Position numbers and translations under genes: made by a program | Assembly (NCBI GenBank): GCA_964431415.1 | Contig: CAYSJS010000001.1 | Location: 1,740-65,739, forward strand | Reading direction: 5' to 3' | Source of the DNA: an uncultured Candidatus Saccharibacteria bacterium | Lineage (GTDB): Bacteria; Patescibacteriota; Saccharimonadia; Saccharimonadales; JACDBH01 | DNA: 64,000 nucleotides | Shown here: piece by piece, positions 2,857 through 63,892 of the stretch | Layout: each line of letters starts with the position of its first letter | How positions within the stretch are numbered: the first letter of the stretch is position 1 | The notes under the pieces: generated by a model | What the model saw: only the letters and a program-made list of their open reading frames with translations | What the model was told of the DNA's origin: nothing | The model's database searches: none

Positions 2857-3093
2857 ATGGAAGTTCCTCAAAGTGTAATGAGTTTCGTCCAAAGACGGGT
2901 TGAAGCCGCAACGGGTAGACGTGAGATCTACGAAGGTCGCCTGTCTGTTGACCAAATGCATGGCCTTTCAGTGACGCCTGCTCAAGTTTTAATACGTGGC
3001 GCCCTTTGTACTTTGGAGGCTATTGCACAAGGCACAGAAGAATTTCTGACCTCAGATGAAAAGCTCGATGACTTATTTTCACGAAGAAAGTAA
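2857..3093 (+). CDS. Hypothetical 78-aa protein
   Basis: The ORF starts 3 nt after the rpsG stop on the same strand. No family recognised. Confidence 0.45.
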   Translation: MEVPQSVMSFVQRRVEAATGRREIYEGRLSVDQMHGLSVTPAQVLIRGALCTLEAIAQGTEEFLTSDEKLDDLFSRRK

Positions 3094-3134
3094 ACAGTAT
3101 ATGAAAATTATAAAGCCTGTATTGGCTTGAGGAT

Positions 3135-3344
3135 ATGATAATGAGTGAAGGTACGCCACAAAATGGATTTTCGCTTCTTCCTGAACGCTTCGCTCCGGAA
3201 GACCTTTCTGCGATCAGGGAGCTTGCAAGTGAACTCGATAATCCATCGATGGAAATCGTCAGGGCAGCCCTGGGAAGATTTGAGGAGCATATACTCAGAA
3301 GAAGAAATGAAGGTGGAGAAGGTACACCGCCCCCTACTATGTAG
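3135..3344 (+). CDS. Hypothetical 69-aa protein, weakly ribbon-helix-helix-like
   Basis: The segment FSLLPERFAPEDLSAIRELASELDNPSMEIVRAALGRF has a strand-helix-helix pattern (impression only). The start could instead be the ATG at 3141. Confidence 0.4.
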   Translation: MIMSEGTPQNGFSLLPERFAPEDLSAIRELASELDNPSMEIVRAALGRFEEHILRRRNEGGEGTPPPTM

Positions 3345-3367
3345 GTAGCACTACAGAAAGAAAAGCA

Positions 3368-3634
3368 ATGGCAGAAATTGGAGGAAGACTCAAAGACAAT
3401 GCGTTCACTAATGCTGGCTTTGCCGCTCTGGACGACATTGCTGCTGCAGCTCTAAGGAGAGGTCGTCAGGGCCGGGGCTGTGATATTGAACTGCAACTGG
3501 CTTCCACGGGCGATACGTATCCCCTCGACCCGAGCAGGATTTCAGCCATTCAAGACGCGGTTACCTCCACAACTCTGATGCCAGCTGACGCTGTTAGATG
3601 TGTCGCGATGATTGTTCATGGTGTCATAAAATAA
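3368..3634 (+). CDS. Hypothetical 88-aa protein
   Basis: Same-strand ORF. No family recognised. Confidence 0.4.
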   Translation: MAEIGGRLKDNAFTNAGFAALDDIAAAALRRGRQGRGCDIELQLASTGDTYPLDPSRISAIQDAVTSTTLMPADAVRCVAMIVHGVIK

Positions 3635-3716
3635 TAAAACATGCACGAGAATATCAAGAAGCGCTTTGAAGTGTGACGGCCGAGCATTACCTAATAAAAA
3701 AGTCAGGAGAAATACA

Positions 3717-4064
3717 GTGACACAGCAAGAAGCAGAAAATAGCAGAACCTCCCTTGTATTTGGCGTGTCCAGACAATCGGTAGAAGAGCAGTTTTTAAGC
3801 GGACAGGCCGAGAGTCCGTCGGCTATATATTTTGAGTTGTCGCGCCTCTACGTAGCACTTTCAGGATGTGTCGTAGTCGAGACCGACAATACGTTCTTGT
3901 CCGAAAGTGATTTGGCTACGGCCAAACGAGATGCAGAGGCGGCGCTTGCCTATAGTGTGGCGTATCGCAGTTTTTGCAGCGACACATTTCATAACGACAC
4001 CGTTCAACTTCAACTGCTTGCAGGCTATGTCGATAGCCTACTCAAGGCAAAAGACGAAAGCTAA
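3717..4064 (+). CDS. Hypothetical 115-aa acidic protein
   Basis: A GTG at 3717 is preceded by AGGAG (3704-3708). The longer ORF-track start at 3666 (TTG) lacks an RBS. Confidence 0.45.
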   Translation: MTQQEAENSRTSLVFGVSRQSVEEQFLSGQAESPSAIYFELSRLYVALSGCVVVETDNTFLSESDLATAKRDAEAALAYSVAYRSFCSDTFHNDTVQLQLLAGYVDSLLKAKDES

Positions 4065-4274: not shown

Positions 4275-6362
4275 ATGGCAGATAAAAAAACAGCAATGAA
4301 AATGATCCGCAACATGGGTATTATCGCTCATATTGACGCCGGTAAAACGACGACAACCGAAGGTATTTTGTACCGCACTGGCCTAAAGCACAAAATTGGC
4401 GCCGTGCACGAAGGCGAAACTACCACCGACTGGATGGCTCAGGAACGCGAGCGCGGTATTACTATTGTTTCTGCTGCAGTTACCTGTTACTGGAAGGGAC
4501 ACCAGATTAACATTATCGATACGCCGGGTCACATCGACTTTACAGTCGAGGTAGAACGTTCACTCCGCGTACTCGACGGAGCATGTGTTGTCTTTGACGG
4601 TAAAATGGGTGTTGAATCACAATCTGAGACGGTATGGCGCCAGGCTACCAAATACGGCGTGCCACGTATCTGCTTTATTAACAAGATTAACCAAACCGGC
4701 GGCGACTTCTACAAGAGCCTTGAATCTATTCATAACCGCCTCAGCAAGCGCGCATTCCCGGTCCACCTGCCAATTGGCTTTGAGCAGAGCATAAACGGTG
4801 TTGTCGACTTGGTTACAATGAAGGCGTACACCTACAAAGACTTTACCGATCACGAGCTGATCGAAGGCGAAATTCCCGCCGACATGATGGACGAGGTAAA
4901 GCGTTACCGCTCGCTTTTGATTGAAAATGCCGTTGCCGAAGACGAAGCAATGCTTGAAAAGTACTTCGAAGTGGGTGAAGAAGGTTTGAGCGAAGAAGAC
5001 ATCAAGCAGGCGATTCGTTCTGCGGTACTTTCTGGCAACTTCTTTGCAGTTACGGGCGGTGATGGTCGCGGAGTAATTGTAGAAAAACTTCTCGACATGT
5101 TTATGGACTACCTCCCAAGCCCGCTTGACCGCGGCAGCACATGGGGCACGCATCCAAAAACCGGTGACGAAATTGAGCGCCAGCCTGCTGAGGATCAGCC
5201 AATGGCCGGTCTTGCATTTAAGATCACAACCGACCCGTTTGTGGGTAAGCTTGCATATTTCCGTGTGTATTCTGGCAAGATTACGGCCGGGTCATATGTA
5301 CTCAACAGCTCAACAGGCGAAAAAGAGCGTATTGGACGCATTGTTCGTATGCAAGCAGACAAGCGCGAAGATGTGGCAGAAGTGTCTGCCGGTGACATCG
5401 CCGCAATCGTTGGCTTAAAAGGGACGACGACTGGCCACACATTGTGCGACCCAAATAATCCTATCGTACTTGAGAGCATTACCTTCCCAGAGCCTCCGGT
5501 TTCTATCGCTATCGAACCAAAGACAAAATCTGACCAAGAAAAAATGTCGATCGCTATGCAGCGCTTGGCTGAAGAAGATCCAACCTTCCGTATTAAAGTT
5601 GATGACGAAACCGGCCAGACGATCATCAGCGGCATGGGTGAGCTGCACCTAGAAATTATTGTTGACCGTATGAAGCGCGAATTTGACGTTGAAGCAAACA
5701 TTGGCGCACCGCAGGTTGCGTACCGCGAAACGATCCGTAAAGCCGATGTTGAAGCGCAAGGTAAGTTTATTCGTCAGTCTGGTGGACGCGGTCAGTACGG
5801 TGACGCATGGATCCGTATTTCGCCAAATGAGCAGGGTAAGGGCTTTGAATTTATTAACTCGATCAAGGGTGGTGTAATCCCTGGCGAGTACATTAAGCCT
5901 GTTGAAGCCGGTATTGTTGAAGCGATGACGACCGGTACGGTTGCTGGCTATCCGGTAGTAGATGTAATTGTTGAACTGTACGATGGTAGTTACCACGAAG
6001 TTGACTCCAACGAAATGGCCTTTAAGATTGCAGGGTCAATGGCCTTCCAGGAAGCAATGAAGAAAGCTAACCCGGTTTTGCTTGAGCCAATCATGAAAGT
6101 TGTTGTAATTACACCAGAAGAGTTCATGGGTGACGTAATCGGTGACTTAAACAGCAAGCGCGCTCGAATCGAGTCTATGGAAGATCTTCAAGCTGGAATC
6201 AAAGAGATAACCGCCTTTGTACCGCTTGGTGAAATGTTTGGCTACACGACTACGCTTAGAAGCTCTACAAAGGGCCGCGCAAGTTCAAGCATGGAGCTTG
6301 ACCACTACGCCGACGTGCCGAACCATGTTGCAGAGGCAATCGCCAGCAAACGCGCAAAATAA
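4275..6362 (+). CDS. fusA: Elongation factor G
   Basis: AHIDAGKTTTTE, DTPGHIDFT and NKINQ GTPase motifs. 695 aa, with full-length EF-G-like sequence. Confidence 0.97.
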   Translation: MADKKTAMKMIRNMGIIAHIDAGKTTTTEGILYRTGLKHKIGAVHEGETTTDWMAQERERGITIVSAAVTCYWKGHQINIIDTPGHIDFTVEVERSLRVLDGACVVFDGKMGVESQSETVWRQATKYGVPRICFINKINQTGGDFYKSLESIHNRLSKRAFPVHLPIGFEQSINGVVDLVTMKAYTYKDFTDHELIEGEIPADMMDEVKRYRSLLIENAVAEDEAMLEKYFEVGEEGLSEEDIKQAIRSAVLSGNFFAVTGGDGRGVIVEKLLDMFMDYLPSPLDRGSTWGTHPKTGDEIERQPAEDQPMAGLAFKITTDPFVGKLAYFRVYSGKITAGSYVLNSSTGEKERIGRIVRMQADKREDVAEVSAGDIAAIVGLKGTTTGHTLCDPNNPIVLESITFPEPPVSIAIEPKTKSDQEKMSIAMQRLAEEDPTFRIKVDDETGQTIISGMGELHLEIIVDRMKREFDVEANIGAPQVAYRETIRKADVEAQGKFIRQSGGRGQYGDAWIRISPNEQGKGFEFINSIKGGVIPGEYIKPVEAGIVEAMTTGTVAGYPVVDVIVELYDGSYHEVDSNEMAFKIAGSMAFQEAMKKANPVLLEPIMKVVVITPEEFMGDVIGDLNSKRARIESMEDLQAGIKEITAFVPLGEMFGYTTTLRSSTKGRASSSMELDHYADVPNHVAEAIASKRAK

Positions 6363-20883: not shown

Positions 20884-21132
20884 ATGAGCACTTTTGAACA
20901 AACACCAGACAGTTGGAATGCAGGATTTGAAACTGCTCAATTATTTCCATCTACACCAACAAGTTTTGATCCTCAGCGCAGGTTATTTGCTGCCGCTTGT
21001 GAGGCTGCTCAATGCGGTGTCTCTGGCGTTCCTAACGGCGATAGTCTACTTACTGATCAAGAATTTATTGATGGATTCAGAACAGGTCTCATGCATACGA
21101 CCATAGCAGTAGAAGGAGAAGGAAATGTCTAG
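20884..21132 (+). CDS. Orphan 82-aa acidic protein inserted between rplB and rpsS
   Basis: The ATG is 2 nt after the rplB stop. Its 3' end overlaps the rpsS start by 8 nt and contains the rpsS RBS (GAAGGAGAAGG). No family recognised. Confidence 0.5.
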
Positions 21133-23326: not shown

Positions 23327-23695
23327 ATGATTCAACAAGAAACACGTCTCGTTGTCGCCGACAACAGTGGCGCAAAGGAAATCCTTTGTATCCGCGTTTT
23401 GGGCGGTACACGACGCCGCTATGCACACGTTGGCGACATCATCGTTGCTACCGTTAAGCAAGCAAACCCAAGCGGCGCAGTCAAAAAGAAATCAGTTGTT
23501 AAGGCAGTAGTAGTACGAACCCGCAACGCCATTCGCCGACCAGACGGCTCAACCATTCGTTTTGACGACAATGCAGCGGTTATCATCGGTGAAGATAAAC
23601 TACCAAAAGGTACACGTATCTTTGGGCCAGTTCCACGCGAACTACGCGACCAAGGATATGCTAAGATCATCAGCCTTGCGCCGGAGGTCCTATAA
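23327..23695 (+). CDS. rplN: 50S ribosomal protein L14
   Basis: [18 protein letters not shown]... Confidence 0.98.
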
Positions 23696-24039
23696 TGAAT
23701 ACTCAAACCAAGAAACAAGCATTCAAGATTCGCCTTAAGGTCGGAGATACTGTTATTGTGCGAAGCGGTAAATACAAGGGTAAGACGGGTAAGATAACCG
23801 CTACTCATCCATTTGAAAACAAAGTTACCGTTGAAGGCATTAATATTGTCAAAAAGCATGTTAAGCCTAACCGCACACATCCCCAGGGCGACATTGTTGA
23901 AATTACCAAGCCTATTTGGGTAAGCAAGGTTGGGATCGTAGAGCCAACCAGCAAGAAAGCAAGCAAGATTGAGCACAAAGTTGACGCTAAAGGTGTAAAA
24001 ACCCGTGTATTCAAGCGCACCGGCAAGGAGATAAAGTAA
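23695..24039 (+). CDS. rplX: 50S ribosomal protein L24
   Basis: KVGDTVIVRSGKYKGKTGKI (KOW motif), synteny. Confidence 0.95.
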   Translation: MNTQTKKQAFKIRLKVGDTVIVRSGKYKGKTGKITATHPFENKVTVEGINIVKKHVKPNRTHPQGDIVEITKPIWVSKVGIVEPTSKKASKIEHKVDAKGVKTRVFKRTGKEIK

Positions 24040-24275
24040 TGGGTAGATTTGAAGTTCAATTGCAACCAGGTGAAGCTTGGGTAAGTGGCGGTTTAAGATA
24101 TGCCGATGGATATATAGGAGCTATGGATAGTAATGACCTAGATACTTTATACGTGCAAAGACGTGCTGCTGAAGAAAGACTAAGGGGTGAGCAGCCCAAC
24201 AATCCGGCTTTGCCGGATGATGGCGCGATGAGCGGGGATATTTCCCGCTCATGGGCCGATAAGGAGATCAAGTAA
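24039..24275 (+). CDS. Orphan 78-aa acidic protein inserted between rplX and rplE
   Basis: Both ends are TAATG overlaps: rplX stop with its own ATG at 24037-24041, and its own stop with the rplE ATG at 24273-24277. No family recognised. Confidence 0.55.
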   Translation: MGRFEVQLQPGEAWVSGGLRYADGYIGAMDSNDLDTLYVQRRAAEERLRGEQPNNPALPDDGAMSGDISRSWADKEIK

Positions 24276-24853
24276 TGGCCACTAAAACTACTACCGTTGC
24301 AACCGGCGCACGCTTAAAGAGTCTGTACAACGACAAATACGCCGCCGAACTCCTTAAGGAGCTTGAGCTTGCAAACGTACACCAGGTTCCTAAACTTCAG
24401 AAGATCACCATCAATGTTGGTCTTGGACGCGCAAAAGATGACAAAAAGTTGATTGAAGTGGCCGCAAATACACTCACTAAGATTACTGGCCAGCATCCTG
24501 TTGAAACCGTCGCCAAGCAGTCTATCGCAAGCTTTAAGCTCCGTGAAGGCAACAAAATTGGCCTTAAAGTTACTCTCCGCGGCGACCGCATGTACGAATT
24601 CATGGACAGACTTGTAAACATCGTACTGCCACGGCTTCGCGACTTCCACGGTGTCAGCGCAAAAGCGTTCGACCGCCAGGGCAACTACGCGCTTGGCCTA
24701 AGCGAACAGTCAGTTTTTCCTGAGCTTACCTTTGAAGAAACCACCACTCCACACGGATTGCAGGTACTATTCACAATTAAGTCAGAAGAACCAGCACATG
24801 CCAGGGCACTGCTCACAAAGTTTGGCATGCCATTTGAAAAGGAGAATAAATAA
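24275..24853 (+). CDS. rplE: 50S ribosomal protein L5
   Basis: [25 protein letters not shown]... Confidence 0.97.
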
Positions 24854-53998: not shown

Positions 53999-54289
53999 AT
54001 GGCAACACATGAATCAGTAAATGCCGCAATTATAGCGATAAATACATATCAAAAAGATCATCCAGTTAGAACAGCAACTTGGGCAGGCCAAGTTATTGGG
54101 GTAGTAGGAGTTAAGGCTGAAGACGGAACCCCAGGATATGGTATAGGCATAAGTGAATCTACTATGAGGCCACATACAGCCCTCTATGACAAAAGAATAT
54201 CTAGAATCTTGGCGAGTAAAGGACTAGCCGATGTATCGGTTCATGTTATAGAGGTGGATCCTTATTATTTGGATCCTAATTGGCAGTGA
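53999..54289 (+). CDS. Hypothetical 96-aa protein
   Basis: ORF only. Confidence 0.45.
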   Translation: MATHESVNAAIIAINTYQKDHPVRTATWAGQVIGVVGVKAEDGTPGYGIGISESTMRPHTALYDKRISRILASKGLADVSVHVIEVDPYYLDPNWQ

Positions 54290-54357
54290 TTTCTAATCCT
54301 TATATTGAATAAAGTTCCAAAAAGAGTCGACTAGCTCCTGCCAAATATAAGTAGTTT

Positions 54358-54387
54358 AAAAAGAACTTCGTCTGGAGTTCTTTTTTG
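54358..54387. terminator. Bidirectional terminator between convergent genes
   Basis: agaacttc / ggagttct form an 8-bp stem with one G-U pair and a 4-nt loop. Flanked by an A-run and a T6 run. Confidence 0.6.
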
Positions 54388-54390
54388 TTA

Positions 54391-54927
54391 TTATTTTACC
54401 AATAAAAAAGTAGATACGTTCCAAATAATAACTAGCAACAATAAAGGAGATTCCCAATACCCAGCTTTTAAGATACTTCTTAGTACATATTGCACTATTA
54501 AGAGGAGGACAGTAGAAACTATTATCACAATACTGATCGTGTTATTGATGGTATGAATTTGAAAAGTCAGTAAACACATACCCAGAGTTATTAAGGCAAC
54601 ACTGGCTTGAACTAGTTTTCTGTGAAGAATAATATGTTTTGTTACAACTATAGAAGAAGCTATCAAGAGAATGCTGCCAGCCAACATTAAACTACTGATT
54701 GCTTGTTTATGTTCAATGTTCAAAGTCTCAATAATATAGAGCGCATAAAAAAGCTGAAGGGTAGTAAATACAGAAATTACAACTATAAACCTTGTTTTAC
54801 TCCGCTTGCTCTTAGCTAAGGCCGAGATAGGTTTTTTTAATAAACTATATCTTTTATCTAACGATGCAAGCCATATTAAGCTCAAAACAATAAAGAGTAT
54901 ATTAAAAATACTAAGATAAACAAGCAT
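54391..54927 (-). CDS. Hypothetical polytopic membrane protein (178 aa) in a visibly AT-rich segment
   Basis: Five to six hydrophobic helices with Ile/Leu/Lys-rich, AT-biased codons. Confidence 0.5.
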   Translation of the reverse strand: MLVYLSIFNILFIVLSLIWLASLDKRYSLLKKPISALAKSKRSKTRFIVVISVFTTLQLFYALYIIETLNIEHKQAISSLMLAGSILLIASSIVVTKHIILHRKLVQASVALITLGMCLLTFQIHTINNTISIVIIVSTVLLLIVQYVLRSILKAGYWESPLLLLVIIWNVSTFLLVK

Positions 54928-63697: not shown

Positions 63698-63892
63698 TTA
63701 CCTTTGGGTTACAATTTTGACAAGATTATATAGTGAAAAGCCACCACCAATAAAAATGCATCCAGTGCCTAATTCTTGTAGTGCTTCACTATCTTGATTT
63801 TTTAGGATACATCCAAGCGCCACTACACCTAAACCCGCACATAAGGCCTTCCTATTTGTATAGCCACTATCGGCTGTGGGTTCTCTGTTCAT
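63698..63892 (-). CDS. Hypothetical small membrane protein (64 aa)
   Basis: Two hydrophobic segments. Convergent with the DUF45 gene. Confidence 0.4.
   Translation of the reverse strand: MNREPTADSGYTNRKALCAGLGVVALGCILKNQDSEALQELGTGCIFIGGGFSLYNLVKIVTQR

What the first reader, a model, noticed from the sequence alone, without database searches (positions are those of the whole stretch)
24039..24275. Orphan 78-codon ORF between rplX and rplE, TAATG-coupled at both ends
Both boundaries are 1-nt stop/start overlaps (rplX TAA with its ATG, and its TAA with the rplE ATG). Ribosomes finishing L24 would therefore be expected to translate it and then L5. The product (MGRFEVQLQPGEAWVSGGLRYADGYIGAMDSNDLDTLYVQRRAAEERLRGEQPNNP...) has no family I recognise. 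Double coupling inside the spc operon is the strongest sequence-level hint that these inserts are real, stoichiometrically co-expressed proteins. I infer they may be lineage-specific ribosome-associated factors in a genome that lacks L30.
Basis: partly seen in the sequence, partly recalled or inferred. Interest (0 to 1): 0.72.

Follow-up and report, generated by a model that had tools for sequence, protein, structure and literature searches.

The report
Translated insertion cassette between rplX and rplE
The 78-codon ORF is real and very probably translated, but it is not a lineage-wide ribosomal factor: it is an insertion made of a small, selectively constrained protein domain fused to a conserved two-hairpin nucleic-acid module, one member of a large and apparently undescribed family of elements that sit exactly at stop/start overlaps of ribosomal-protein and RNA-polymerase operons in Saccharibacteria.

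Summary
ORF 24039-24275 shares TAATG with rplX and with rplE, and the same insert occurs in independent assemblies.

- **It is an insertion.** 76 of 80 related Saccharimonadales genomes have rplX and rplE directly overlapped. The double TAATG comes from a 23-nt direct repeat of the SD-stop-ATG junction flanking the insert.
- **Codons 1-48 encode a real peptide.** Against the full-length homologue in L099, pS is 0.81 and pN is 0.27. AlphaFold predicts four strands and a helix, pLDDT 75-85.
- **Codons 49-78 are a nucleic-acid module.** This 67-nt two-hairpin module is conserved as nucleotides (pS 0.05). It is 81-94% identical across genomes whose r-protein genes are 58-78% identical, and its stem changes are compensatory.
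- **The module belongs to a family.** It aligns with a ~75-nt element family: 31 copies in the loci I fetched and 533 translated protein clusters. All copies are sense-oriented and sit at coupled junctions (S10/spc operons, once rpoB-rpoC). Related copies are read in another frame.
- **Pass-through is general.** 84 of 96 junction inserts are pass-through ORFs, against 9 expected.

No known protein or RNA family matches. Nothing supports ribosome association or a link to L30 loss. The insertion mechanism and the peptide's function are unknown.

The parts
23695..24039 (+). rplX (L24), upstream gene. Its last 20 nt carry the SD that now serves ORF78.
   Evidence: Pfam ribosomal_L24 9.5e-19 and KOW; ORF list.
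24020..24042 (+). Junction copy 1 (CCGGCAAGGAGATAAAGTAATGG): SD AAGGAG 24025-24030, rplX stop TAA 24037-24039, ORF78 ATG 24039-24041. This is the ancestral rplX/rplE junction.
   Evidence: Direct repeat D3. The same GGNAAGGAGATNAARTAATGGC junction is uninterrupted in 76 of 80 relatives.
24039..24275 (+). ORF78, a pass-through ORF of 78 codons plus stop.
   Evidence: Open in 0.5% of interior shuffles.
24039..24182 (+). Codons 1-48: protein-constrained N-terminal domain ('cargo'), predicted as four beta strands plus a helix.
   Evidence: Against L099:3001-3144, 58% amino-acid identity, pS 0.81, pN 0.265, Fisher p = 9e-8. Period-3 composition G1 0.47, GC3 0.17. AlphaFold pLDDT 75-85 for residues 1-50.
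24180..24252 (+). Two-hairpin nucleic-acid module. Conserved single-stranded GGGGTGAGCAGCC 24184-24196. Hairpin 1: outer helix 24194-24198 / 24221-24226, inner stem-loop 24202-24218. Linker GCGCG. Hairpin 2: 24228-24252.
   Evidence: Covariance model R1, 65 bits, E = 7e-13. 81-94% identical in 5 other genomes. Covariation. Fold z = -3.7.
24256..24278 (+). Junction copy 2 (CCGATAAGGAGATCAAGTAATGG): duplicated SD AAGGAG 24261-24266, ORF78 stop TAA 24273-24275, rplE ATG 24275-24277.
   Evidence: Direct repeat D3, 20 of 23 identical, spacing 236 nt.
24275..24853 (+). rplE (L5), downstream gene.
   Evidence: Pfam Ribosomal_L5 and L5_C.

Best explanation
ORF78 is an insertion cassette that landed in the ancestral one-base rplX/rplE overlap. 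It has two layers.

(1) Its 3' third is a ~70-nt sense-strand module with two hairpins. The module belongs to a widespread family of small elements in Saccharimonadales. These elements occupy stop/start junctions of translationally coupled, highly expressed operons.

(2) Its 5' two-thirds encode a ~48-residue peptide domain ('cargo') that is under purifying selection.

The insertion duplicated about 20 nt of the junction (SD, stop, ATG), so it is translationally transparent. Ribosomes ending L24 restart at the overlapping ATG using the old rplE SD. They read through the 78 codons, melting the hairpins, and stop at a TAA that overlaps the rplE ATG behind a fresh copy of the SD. L5 synthesis therefore stays coupled.

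Shown here: the insertion status, the junction duplication, the two different selection regimes, the family membership of the module, the sense-only orientation, and the general pass-through property.

Inferred: that the cassette is or was mobile (mechanism and enzyme unknown), that it is translated at r-protein-like rates, and that the structure acts on the sense strand, as mRNA or as single-stranded DNA. The peptide's function is unknown. Its patchy, swappable distribution fits an accessory or element-associated product better than a ribosome component.
For: **Ancestral state.** The rplX-rplE gap is -1 in 74 loci. Two more apparent gaps (L019, L082) are start-codon calls, so 76 of 80 genomes have no insert.

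**Junction duplication.**
- The window has a 23-nt direct repeat flanking the insert.
- The same 15-22-nt junction-specific repeats flank copies in L001, L059 (two different junctions, each matching its own upstream gene end), L066, L080, L099, and the rpoB-rpoC copy L095.

**Module conservation.**
- It is 67 nt long in all six genomes and 81-94% identical. The neighbouring L22 and L5 genes are 58-78% identical with synonymous sites saturated.
- Module pS is 0.05 against a flank pS of 0.72 (p = 1e-9).
- It occurs at two different junctions: L24-L5 and L22-S3.

**Structure.**
- 15-sequence alignment: 97% of cells paired, 13 of 21 pairs with compensatory changes, 0 of 500 shuffles as good, slid controls 35-49% paired.
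- 31-copy alignment: 96.7% paired, 15 pairs compensatory.
- Six window-type copies: 95% paired, 7 pairs compensatory.
- G.U 20 versus A.C 4 in paired columns.

**Family and context.**
- All 31 copies in the fetched loci are on the operon sense strand at junctions.
- A profile of the family's translated mini-ORFs finds 533 protein clusters.
- 7 of 7 context look-ups give S10/spc junctions, or rpoB-rpoC, with exact overlaps.
- The reading frame differs between the window-type (GAG CAG CCC) and the main family (G AGC AGC C).

**Pass-through.** 84 of 96 junction inserts are pass-through ORFs, against 9.0 expected.

**Cargo.** Against L099, pS 0.81, pN 0.27, p = 9e-8. AlphaFold gives residues 1-50 pLDDT 75-85 and residues 51-78 below 50.
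Against: - No transposase, integrase or reverse transcriptase was found, and I could not search for one.
- No terminal inverted repeats were seen.
- Direct repeats of 15-22 nt are atypical for bacterial MITEs, and about half the family copies lack a clear repeat.
- The window holds a single copy.
- No empty-versus-filled site polymorphism within one species was seen.
- Window, L001, L096 and L099 all have the module at the same junction, and module similarity roughly tracks host relatedness. Within this clade, vertical inheritance with strong nucleotide constraint explains the data as well as recent mobility does. Such constraint could mean a host function.
- Purifying selection on the cargo rests on one orthologous pair.
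- Translation has not been observed.
Confidence: 0.6

Rival explanations
1. Host cis-regulatory RNA. The two-hairpin module is a functional mRNA element of r-protein and RNA-polymerase operons. It could be a processing or stability site, or a binding site for a global regulator or an r-protein. It was recruited repeatedly or spread by gene conversion. The ORFs exist only so that ribosomes can traverse it.
For: - All 31 copies are sense-oriented, although the antisense orientation would often be open too.
- Single-stranded motifs (GAGCAGCC, GCGCGATGAG) are invariant and the stems covary.
- G.U is in excess over A.C.
- Copies are restricted to r-protein and rpoBC operons in 7 of 7 unbiased look-ups.
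- Module pS of 0.05-0.2 where the flanks are saturated implies long-term nucleotide constraint.
Against: - The distribution is sporadic. Most genomes and most junctions lack the element, and its position differs between genomes.
- Copies within one genome resemble each other more than copies elsewhere, and a tandem dimer exists. This looks like proliferation.
- Junction-specific direct repeats point to insertion events.
- Several unrelated repeat families share the same niche.
- No Rfam family matches, and there is no terminator or promoter signal.
Confidence: 0.2
2. ORF78 is a lineage-specific ribosome-associated protein, co-expressed stoichiometrically with L24 and L5, possibly compensating for missing components such as L30.
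For: - Its position and coupling predict r-protein-like expression.
- The N-terminal 48 residues are under purifying selection and predicted to fold.
Against: - It is absent from 76 of 80 related genomes at this junction.
- The N-domain has homologues only in the 50%-identity cluster that includes L099. Otherwise none were found among 1.84 billion representatives and 5.8 billion clusters.
- The closest relatives carry unrelated N-halves.
- The C-terminal 30 residues are not protein-constrained and are predicted disordered.
- There is no similarity to any ribosomal or known fold.
- L30 absence is general in the group (PMC9297842) and does not co-vary with the insert.
Confidence: 0.1
3. A non-coding spacer that is open by chance or through annotation bias.
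For: Codon-usage score is low for a real gene (6th percentile of genuine gene windows). The protein is an orphan.
Against: - Open in only 0.5% of shuffles.
- Strong period-3 composition (chi-square p = 0.0014).
- Purifying selection on codons 1-48.
- 84 of 96 junction inserts are pass-through, against 9 expected.
Confidence: 0.03

Closest known systems
Rickettsia palindromic elements (RPEs; Ogata et al. 2000, as reviewed in PMC10969869)
   Same: Small (~100-150 nt), structured, multi-family repeats. They are tolerated because they stay open and are translated together with essential genes. The peptides they encode are by-products of nucleotide-level elements.
   Different: RPEs insert inside coding sequences as in-frame fusions. 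The elements here sit exactly at stop/start overlaps and form separate mini-ORFs, with the SD-stop-ATG junction duplicated. There is no sequence similarity. All copies here are sense-oriented. Some carry a selectively constrained peptide cargo.
Bacterial MITEs and structured intergenic repeats co-transcribed with operons (Correia, ERIC, BOX, RUP; PMC10969869, PMC3184786)
   Same: Short, non-autonomous, hairpin-forming, multi-copy repeats that are often co-transcribed and occasionally carry small ORFs.
   Different: No terminal inverted repeats were detected. The flanking repeats are 15-22 nt rather than 2-10 nt. Copies are strictly junction-specific and orientation-specific. No parent IS is known.
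Integron gene cassettes (small promoterless ORF plus a 3' structured attC site)
   Same: The architecture is a variable small orphan ORF followed by a conserved folded element. Orientation is fixed relative to transcription. The upstream ORF appears exchangeable.
   Different: The module has two separate hairpins rather than one long R''/L''-L'/R' bulged hairpin. No GTTRRRY core sites and no integrase or attI were seen. The cassette is embedded in essential operons and fused in frame to the module. Junction duplication is not a feature of attC recombination. This comparison rests on my own knowledge of integrons.
Translational coupling by termination-reinitiation at overlapping stop/start codons (PMC12548453)
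   Same: Both ends of ORF78 have the TAATG geometry and an SD 8 nt upstream, the configuration in which coupling is most efficient.
   Different: Here the coupled unit is an inserted relay ORF rather than two bona fide operon genes.

Membership tests
Conserved ribosomal or ribosome-associated protein of the S10/spc cluster | Present at the same operon position across the lineage | tested here: not met
   76 of 80 Saccharimonadales loci have rplX and rplE directly overlapped. The other four carry different elements.
Conserved ribosomal or ribosome-associated protein of the S10/spc cluster | Protein-level conservation over the whole length | tested here: not met
   Only codons 1-48 show purifying selection, and only against L099. 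Codons 49-78 have pS 0.05 and pN 0.23. L001 and L096 have unrelated N-halves.
Conserved ribosomal or ribosome-associated protein of the S10/spc cluster | Physical association with ribosomes | not testable with these tools
   Needs ribosome proteomics or cryo-EM.
Any curated protein family (Pfam, NCBIfam, PHROGs, PDB) | Significant profile, sequence or fold match | tested here: not met
   No hits. Best Foldseek PDB match has E = 1.5.
Any curated RNA family (Rfam 15) | Covariance-model match to the module | tested here: not met
   Nothing at gathering thresholds in the window or in 14 related loci. Only noise at E <= 10.
Junction two-hairpin element family defined here (model R1) | Match to the covariance model: GAGCAGCC, hairpin 1, GCGCGATGAG, hairpin 2 | tested here: met
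   Window 24180-24252, 65 bits, E = 7e-13. The window copy was one of the 15 seed sequences. The independent copies L096, L097 and L099 score 59-65 bits.
Junction two-hairpin element family defined here (model R1) | Sense orientation, located between two co-oriented coupled genes, spanned by a pass-through ORF | tested here: met
Junction two-hairpin element family defined here (model R1) | Flanking duplication of the local SD-stop-ATG junction | tested here: met
   24020-24042 against 24256-24278, 20 of 23 identical.
MITE | Terminal inverted repeats | tested here: not met
   The inverted-repeat search of 23600-24700 found only the internal hairpins and weak chance pairs. The element ends GGGAAAAGAGCAGCC and GTCTCAT are not complementary.
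MITE | Short target-site duplication (2-10 bp) | tested here: not met
   The direct repeats are 15-23 nt.
MITE | Multiple copies per genome | tested here: inconclusive
   One copy in this 64-kb window. Two or three copies per 10-kb locus in L059, L062, L080, L090 and L095. Whole genomes were not available.
Diversity-generating retroelement variable region | A template repeat similar to the variable segment, plus a reverse transcriptase nearby | tested here: not met
   No second copy of 24040-24182 in the window or the fetched loci. This covers only 64 kb of the genome.
Integron cassette / attC | Single bulged hairpin with R''/R' core sites (GTTRRRY), next to an integrase | tested here: not met
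   The consensus structure is two separate hairpins without such cores. Integrase presence elsewhere in the genome was not tested.

The most novel reading that the evidence does not exclude
These are a new class of site- and orientation-specific mobile cassettes. A sense-strand structured module, acting as RNA or single-stranded DNA, directs integration at SD-stop-ATG junctions of essential, highly expressed operons while duplicating the junction. It can carry exchangeable small protein cargos that are thereby expressed at ribosomal-protein levels. This would be a hitch-hiking strategy distinct from MITEs, RPEs and integrons. ORF78's N-domain would be such a cargo, possibly a small nucleic-acid-binding protein acting on the module.
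Probability: 0.3. Interest if true: 0.85.

Novelty: new variant of a known kind. Interest (0 to 1): 0.68.

Why it matters
- It explains a recurrent annotation puzzle: hundreds of 'hypothetical' 33-80-residue ORFs inside Saccharibacteria r-protein operons. It also warns against reading tight double coupling as proof of a new ribosomal component.
- It suggests a way for inserted DNA to colonise very constrained sites in a reduced genome. The insert stays translationally transparent by duplicating the SD-stop-start junction and remaining open. This bears on how translational coupling constrains operon evolution.
- It shows one ORF under two selection regimes: a protein-constrained 5' part and an RNA/DNA-structure-constrained 3' part.
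- It provides a structured element family with strong covariation and no Rfam entry.
- It shows small orphan proteins placed under r-protein-level expression. These are candidates for new accessory functions in episymbiotic bacteria.

Tried and rejected
- **Protein and RNA libraries.** Pfam, NCBIfam, PHROGs, PDB sequences and Rfam (gathering and E <= 10) gave nothing.
- **Public-collection DNA scans.** The exact 20-mer GAGCAGCCCAACAATCCGGC gave three hits in JGI metagenome contigs, all in unrelated high-GC contexts and judged to be chance. It gave none in viral contigs.
- **My first estimate was wrong.** I first put window-versus-L001 flank identity at about 85%. The computed value is 71-78%, with saturated synonymous sites.
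- **My first reading was revised.** I initially took the whole peptide to be an unconstrained by-product. I revised this when the profile search found the full-length homologue P0132/L099.
- **DGR idea.** No template-repeat-like second copy of the variable half exists in the window.
- **Tandem duplication extending into rplE.** A weak 19-nt similarity (D5) does not generalise. The 5' spacers do not resemble downstream gene starts.
- **Stop-avoidance only.** This cannot give G1 = 0.47 with T1 = 0.17 (my own calculation).
- **Orientation bias from stop codons.** Rejected, because 13 of 16 antisense copies have at least one open frame.
- **Codon-usage log-likelihood.** Inconclusive.
- **Promoter and terminator scan.** None found.
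- **Fold search.** No match with E below 1. Weak PC4/Sub1-like and MqsA-N hits were not used.
- **False inserts.** The L019 and L082 'gaps' at this junction are start-codon calls, not inserts.
- **Spurious hits.** P0123 and P0124 from the representative search are repeat-protein noise.
- **Literature.** Searches found no description of these elements.

Full report
**1. Observation**

The window carries rplX (23695-24039) and rplE (24275-24853), identified by Pfam. Between them lies an ATG-started ORF of 78 codons at 24039-24275.

- Its ATG shares one base with the rplX stop, and its TAA shares one base with the rplE ATG.
- Shuffling the interior of the insert leaves such a pass-through ORF in 0.5% of trials.
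- The same sequence, differing by one base in the ORF and two bases in 6,040 nt overall, occurs in an independent ENA assembly (L003).
- No Pfam, NCBIfam, PHROGs, PDB or Rfam family matches.

**2. It is an insertion into a conserved overlap**

A scan of species-representative genomes with the window's L5 protein returned 80 Saccharimonadales loci. I located 20 operon genes in each locus by tblastn and measured every junction.

- At rplX-rplE, 74 loci have a gap of -4 to +2. Nearly all show the same ...GGNAAGGAGATNAARTAATGGC... overlap.
- Two apparent gaps (L019, L082) are alternative start calls.
- Only four loci have inserts, and these belong to other element families.

The ancestral state is therefore a direct TAATG overlap.

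In the window the insert is bracketed by a 23-nt direct repeat of that junction. The two copies are 24020-24042 (CCGGCAAGGAGATAAAGTAATGG) and 24256-24278 (CCGATAAGGAGATCAAGTAATGG), 20 of 23 bases identical. This duplication, not independent selection at each end, accounts for 'TAATG at both ends'. It also gives both ORF78 and rplE an SD at the right distance.

**3. The 3' third is a structured nucleic-acid module**

The first protein search found only a 99% identical copy and a 65-residue ORF at the same junction in Logan contigs (L001/L002). That ORF shares only the C-terminal 33 residues.

*Nucleotide conservation.*
- Between window and L001 the flanking r-protein genes are 71-78% identical, with synonymous sites saturated (pS 0.6-0.8). 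The last 31 codons of the insert are 90% identical, with pS 0.2.
- The same 67-nt core is 91-96% identical in L018, which sits at a different junction (rplV-rpsC) in a genome whose L5 is 77% identical in protein.
- Further copies came from an exhaustive phmmer search and a profile search: L096 (rplX-rplE), L097 (rplV-rpsC) and L099 (rplX-rplE).
- All six cores are exactly 67 nt long and 81-94% identical. The adjacent L22 and L5 genes are 58-78% identical.

*Structure.*
- The differences fall in loops or are compensatory in stems. Examples are ATCCGGC/GCCGGAT to CTTCGGC/GCCGAAG, and GAGCGGGG/CCCGCTC to GAGAGGGG/CCCCTCTC.
- Over the six copies, 95% of cells are paired and 7 of 23 pairs carry double changes.
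- The window module folds at -43.6 kcal/mol, z = -3.7.

**4. The module belongs to a large family of junction elements**

I extracted all 110 gaps of 60 nt or more between r-protein genes in the 83 loci plus the window. Several repeat families appeared.

*Family A and its structure.*
- One family ('Family A', ~75-nt core) shares with the window module the invariant blocks GAGCAGCC, GCGCGATGAG and CTCAT, and the same two-hairpin architecture.
- On the 15-sequence alignment, 97% of cells pair and 13 of 21 pairs have compensatory changes. None of 500 shuffles reach the observed values, and slid controls pair at 35-49%.
- A covariance model (R1) finds 31 copies in the fetched loci. All are on the operon sense strand and all lie at gene junctions.
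- The 31-copy alignment, which is fitted to the model, keeps 96.7% pairing with 15 compensatory pairs.
- G.U pairs outnumber A.C by 20 to 4. This suggests the fold is read on the sense strand.
- The antisense orientation would have an open frame in 13 of 16 copies. Stop codons therefore do not explain the orientation bias.

*Reading frame.* The window-type is read GAG-CAG-CCC (Glu-Gln-Pro). Family A is read G-AGC-AGC-C (Lys-Ser-Ser). The homology is at the nucleotide and structure level, not the protein level.

*Distribution.*
- A profile of Family A's translated mini-ORFs hits 533 protein clusters of 33-64 residues, all unnamed or 'hypothetical'.
- Seven context look-ups, chosen only for long contigs, gave rplD-rplW, rplV-rpsC (three), rpmC-rpsQ, rplE-rpsN, and one tandem dimer between rpoB and rpoC. 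All have exact stop/start overlaps.
- Rfam has no match in 14 such loci.
- I found no description in the searchable literature.

**5. Junction duplication and pass-through are general**

- For Family A and window-type copies, the 3' end of the insert repeats 15-22 nt of the local upstream gene's end.
- This holds for two copies at different junctions in one genome (L059) and for the rpoB-rpoC copy (AACAAGGAGGCAAAATAATG / AACAAGGAGGCAGAATAATG).
- About half the copies lack a clear repeat. Other families carry their own SD.
- The duplication does not extend past the ATG.
- Of 96 inserts, 84 are pass-through ORFs, against 9.0 expected from interior shuffles. Most exceptions are at rpsH-rplF, which is not overlapped ancestrally.

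**6. The 5' two-thirds encode a constrained peptide**

Codons 1-48 have a strong period-3 composition: G1 0.47, GC1 0.62, GC2 0.45, GC3 0.17 (chi-square p = 0.0014). All 29 long non-repeat junction ORFs show this pattern to varying degree. Stop avoidance alone cannot produce it; this is my own calculation.

The decisive result is P0132/L099, a 78-residue homologue at the same junction in a more distant genome (L5 75% identical, L24 71% identical).

| Region (window vs L099) | pS | pN | Amino-acid identity |
|---|---|---|---|
| Codons 1-48 | 0.81 | 0.265 | 58% |
| Codons 49-78 | 0.05 | 0.23 | 60% |
| Flanking genes, pooled | 0.72 | 0.16 | 71-84% |

- For codons 1-48, Fisher p = 9e-8 for synonymous against nonsynonymous change.
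- For codons 49-78, synonymous change against the flanks gives p = 1e-9.
- With the three-sequence alignment, AlphaFold gives pLDDT 75-85 for residues 1-50 (four strands plus a helix) and below 50 for residues 51-78. This matches the boundary between the two selection regimes.
- The fold has no significant PDB match.

The closer relatives L001 and L096 (L5 87% identical) carry unrelated N-terminal halves in front of the same module. The cargo therefore appears to have been replaced, or to have lost constraint, in those lines. The evidence for purifying selection rests on one orthologous pair.

**7. Interpretation**

- ORF78 is best read as a translationally transparent insertion cassette. It combines a small protein cargo, a sense-strand two-hairpin module and a duplicated SD-stop-ATG junction.
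- Termination-reinitiation at overlapping stop/start codons with an upstream SD is the configuration in which coupling works best (PMC12548453). The cassette preserves that configuration on both sides.
- The closest known analogues in behaviour are Rickettsia palindromic elements, which survive as in-frame translated insertions (PMC10969869). The elements here differ in forming separate mini-ORFs at junctions, in their long junction duplications, in their strict orientation, and in sometimes carrying a constrained peptide.
- They fail the MITE definition on terminal inverted repeats and on target-site duplication length. They lack integron attC features.
- A host regulatory role for the module cannot be excluded. 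Orientation, conserved single-stranded motifs, operon restriction and long-term nucleotide constraint all fit such a role. Against it stand sporadic placement, within-genome similarity, a tandem copy, junction duplications, and several unrelated families using the same niche.
- The ribosome-associated-factor idea has no specific support. The insert is missing from most relatives. The N-domain has no homologues beyond one 50%-identity cluster. L30 absence is general in the group (PMC9297842), whereas the insert is sporadic.

**8. Unexplained**

- The insertion mechanism and enzyme.
- The function of the N-domain.
- Why window-type copies always carry a 34-48-codon cargo while Family A copies have only 3-20 nt in that position.
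- Why GC3 of the window's cargo (0.17) is below that of every host gene (median 0.48) and below intergenic GC (0.405).

Noticed in passing
window 20884-21132: A second orphan pass-through ORF (82 aa, GC3 0.23, no family hit) lies between rplB and rpsS. The rplB-rpsS junction holds 178-585-nt orphan ORFs in about 16 of 80 related loci. These are mostly unrelated to one another, although L024, L029, L051 and L052 share an N-terminal 'F.NFPPK..ED' motif.
   Followed up: partly
window 2857-4064 and 1257-1496: About 1.4 kb with four orphan ORFs (78, 69, 88 and 132 aa; no Pfam hit) is inserted between rpsG (2377-2853) and fusA (4275-6362). A 79-aa low-GC3 (0.26) orphan ORF lies upstream of rpsL.
   Followed up: partly
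L018:1255-8184 and L078:167-7954: Two genomes carry ~100-190-nt pass-through inserts at nearly every S10/spc junction. They come from several other repeat families, for example the translations 'SFQFTISN..LLPSL.I.NCKLLI', 'MSDYRIQITDYR' and 'MSKMLQHFRSEEIGVRSEKRLHLLSSDSALLASRLKGA'. Some of these families bring their own SD (GAAAGGAGC).
   Followed up: partly
L095:2001-2195: A tandem dimer of the Family A element forms a 64-aa pass-through ORF between rpoB and rpoC. It is flanked by a 20-nt repeat of that junction.
   Followed up: yes
L059:3585-3786: A Family A copy at rpmC-rpsQ is interrupted by a nested insertion of about 90 nt just before hairpin 2, and it is still open as one 67-aa ORF.
   Followed up: no
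This is the usual state in this bacterial group (PMC9297842) and is unrelated to the insert.
   Followed up: partly
rpsH-rplF junctions in L030, L033, L035, L051, L065, L066, L071: Most of the 12 of 96 junction inserts that are not pass-through ORFs lie at rpsH-rplF. This is the one junction with an ancestral 10-25-nt spacer rather than an overlap.
   Followed up: partly
window 53999-54927 and 63698-63892: Three more ORFs have unusually low GC3 (0.26-0.29, against a median of 0.48). They may be foreign DNA.
   Followed up: no
L099:3821-4045 and L099:4731-4901: The genome that carries the ORF78 homologue also has orphan ORFs of 74 aa (rplE-rpsN) and 56 aa (rpsH-rplF). Neither matches model R1.
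   Followed up: no
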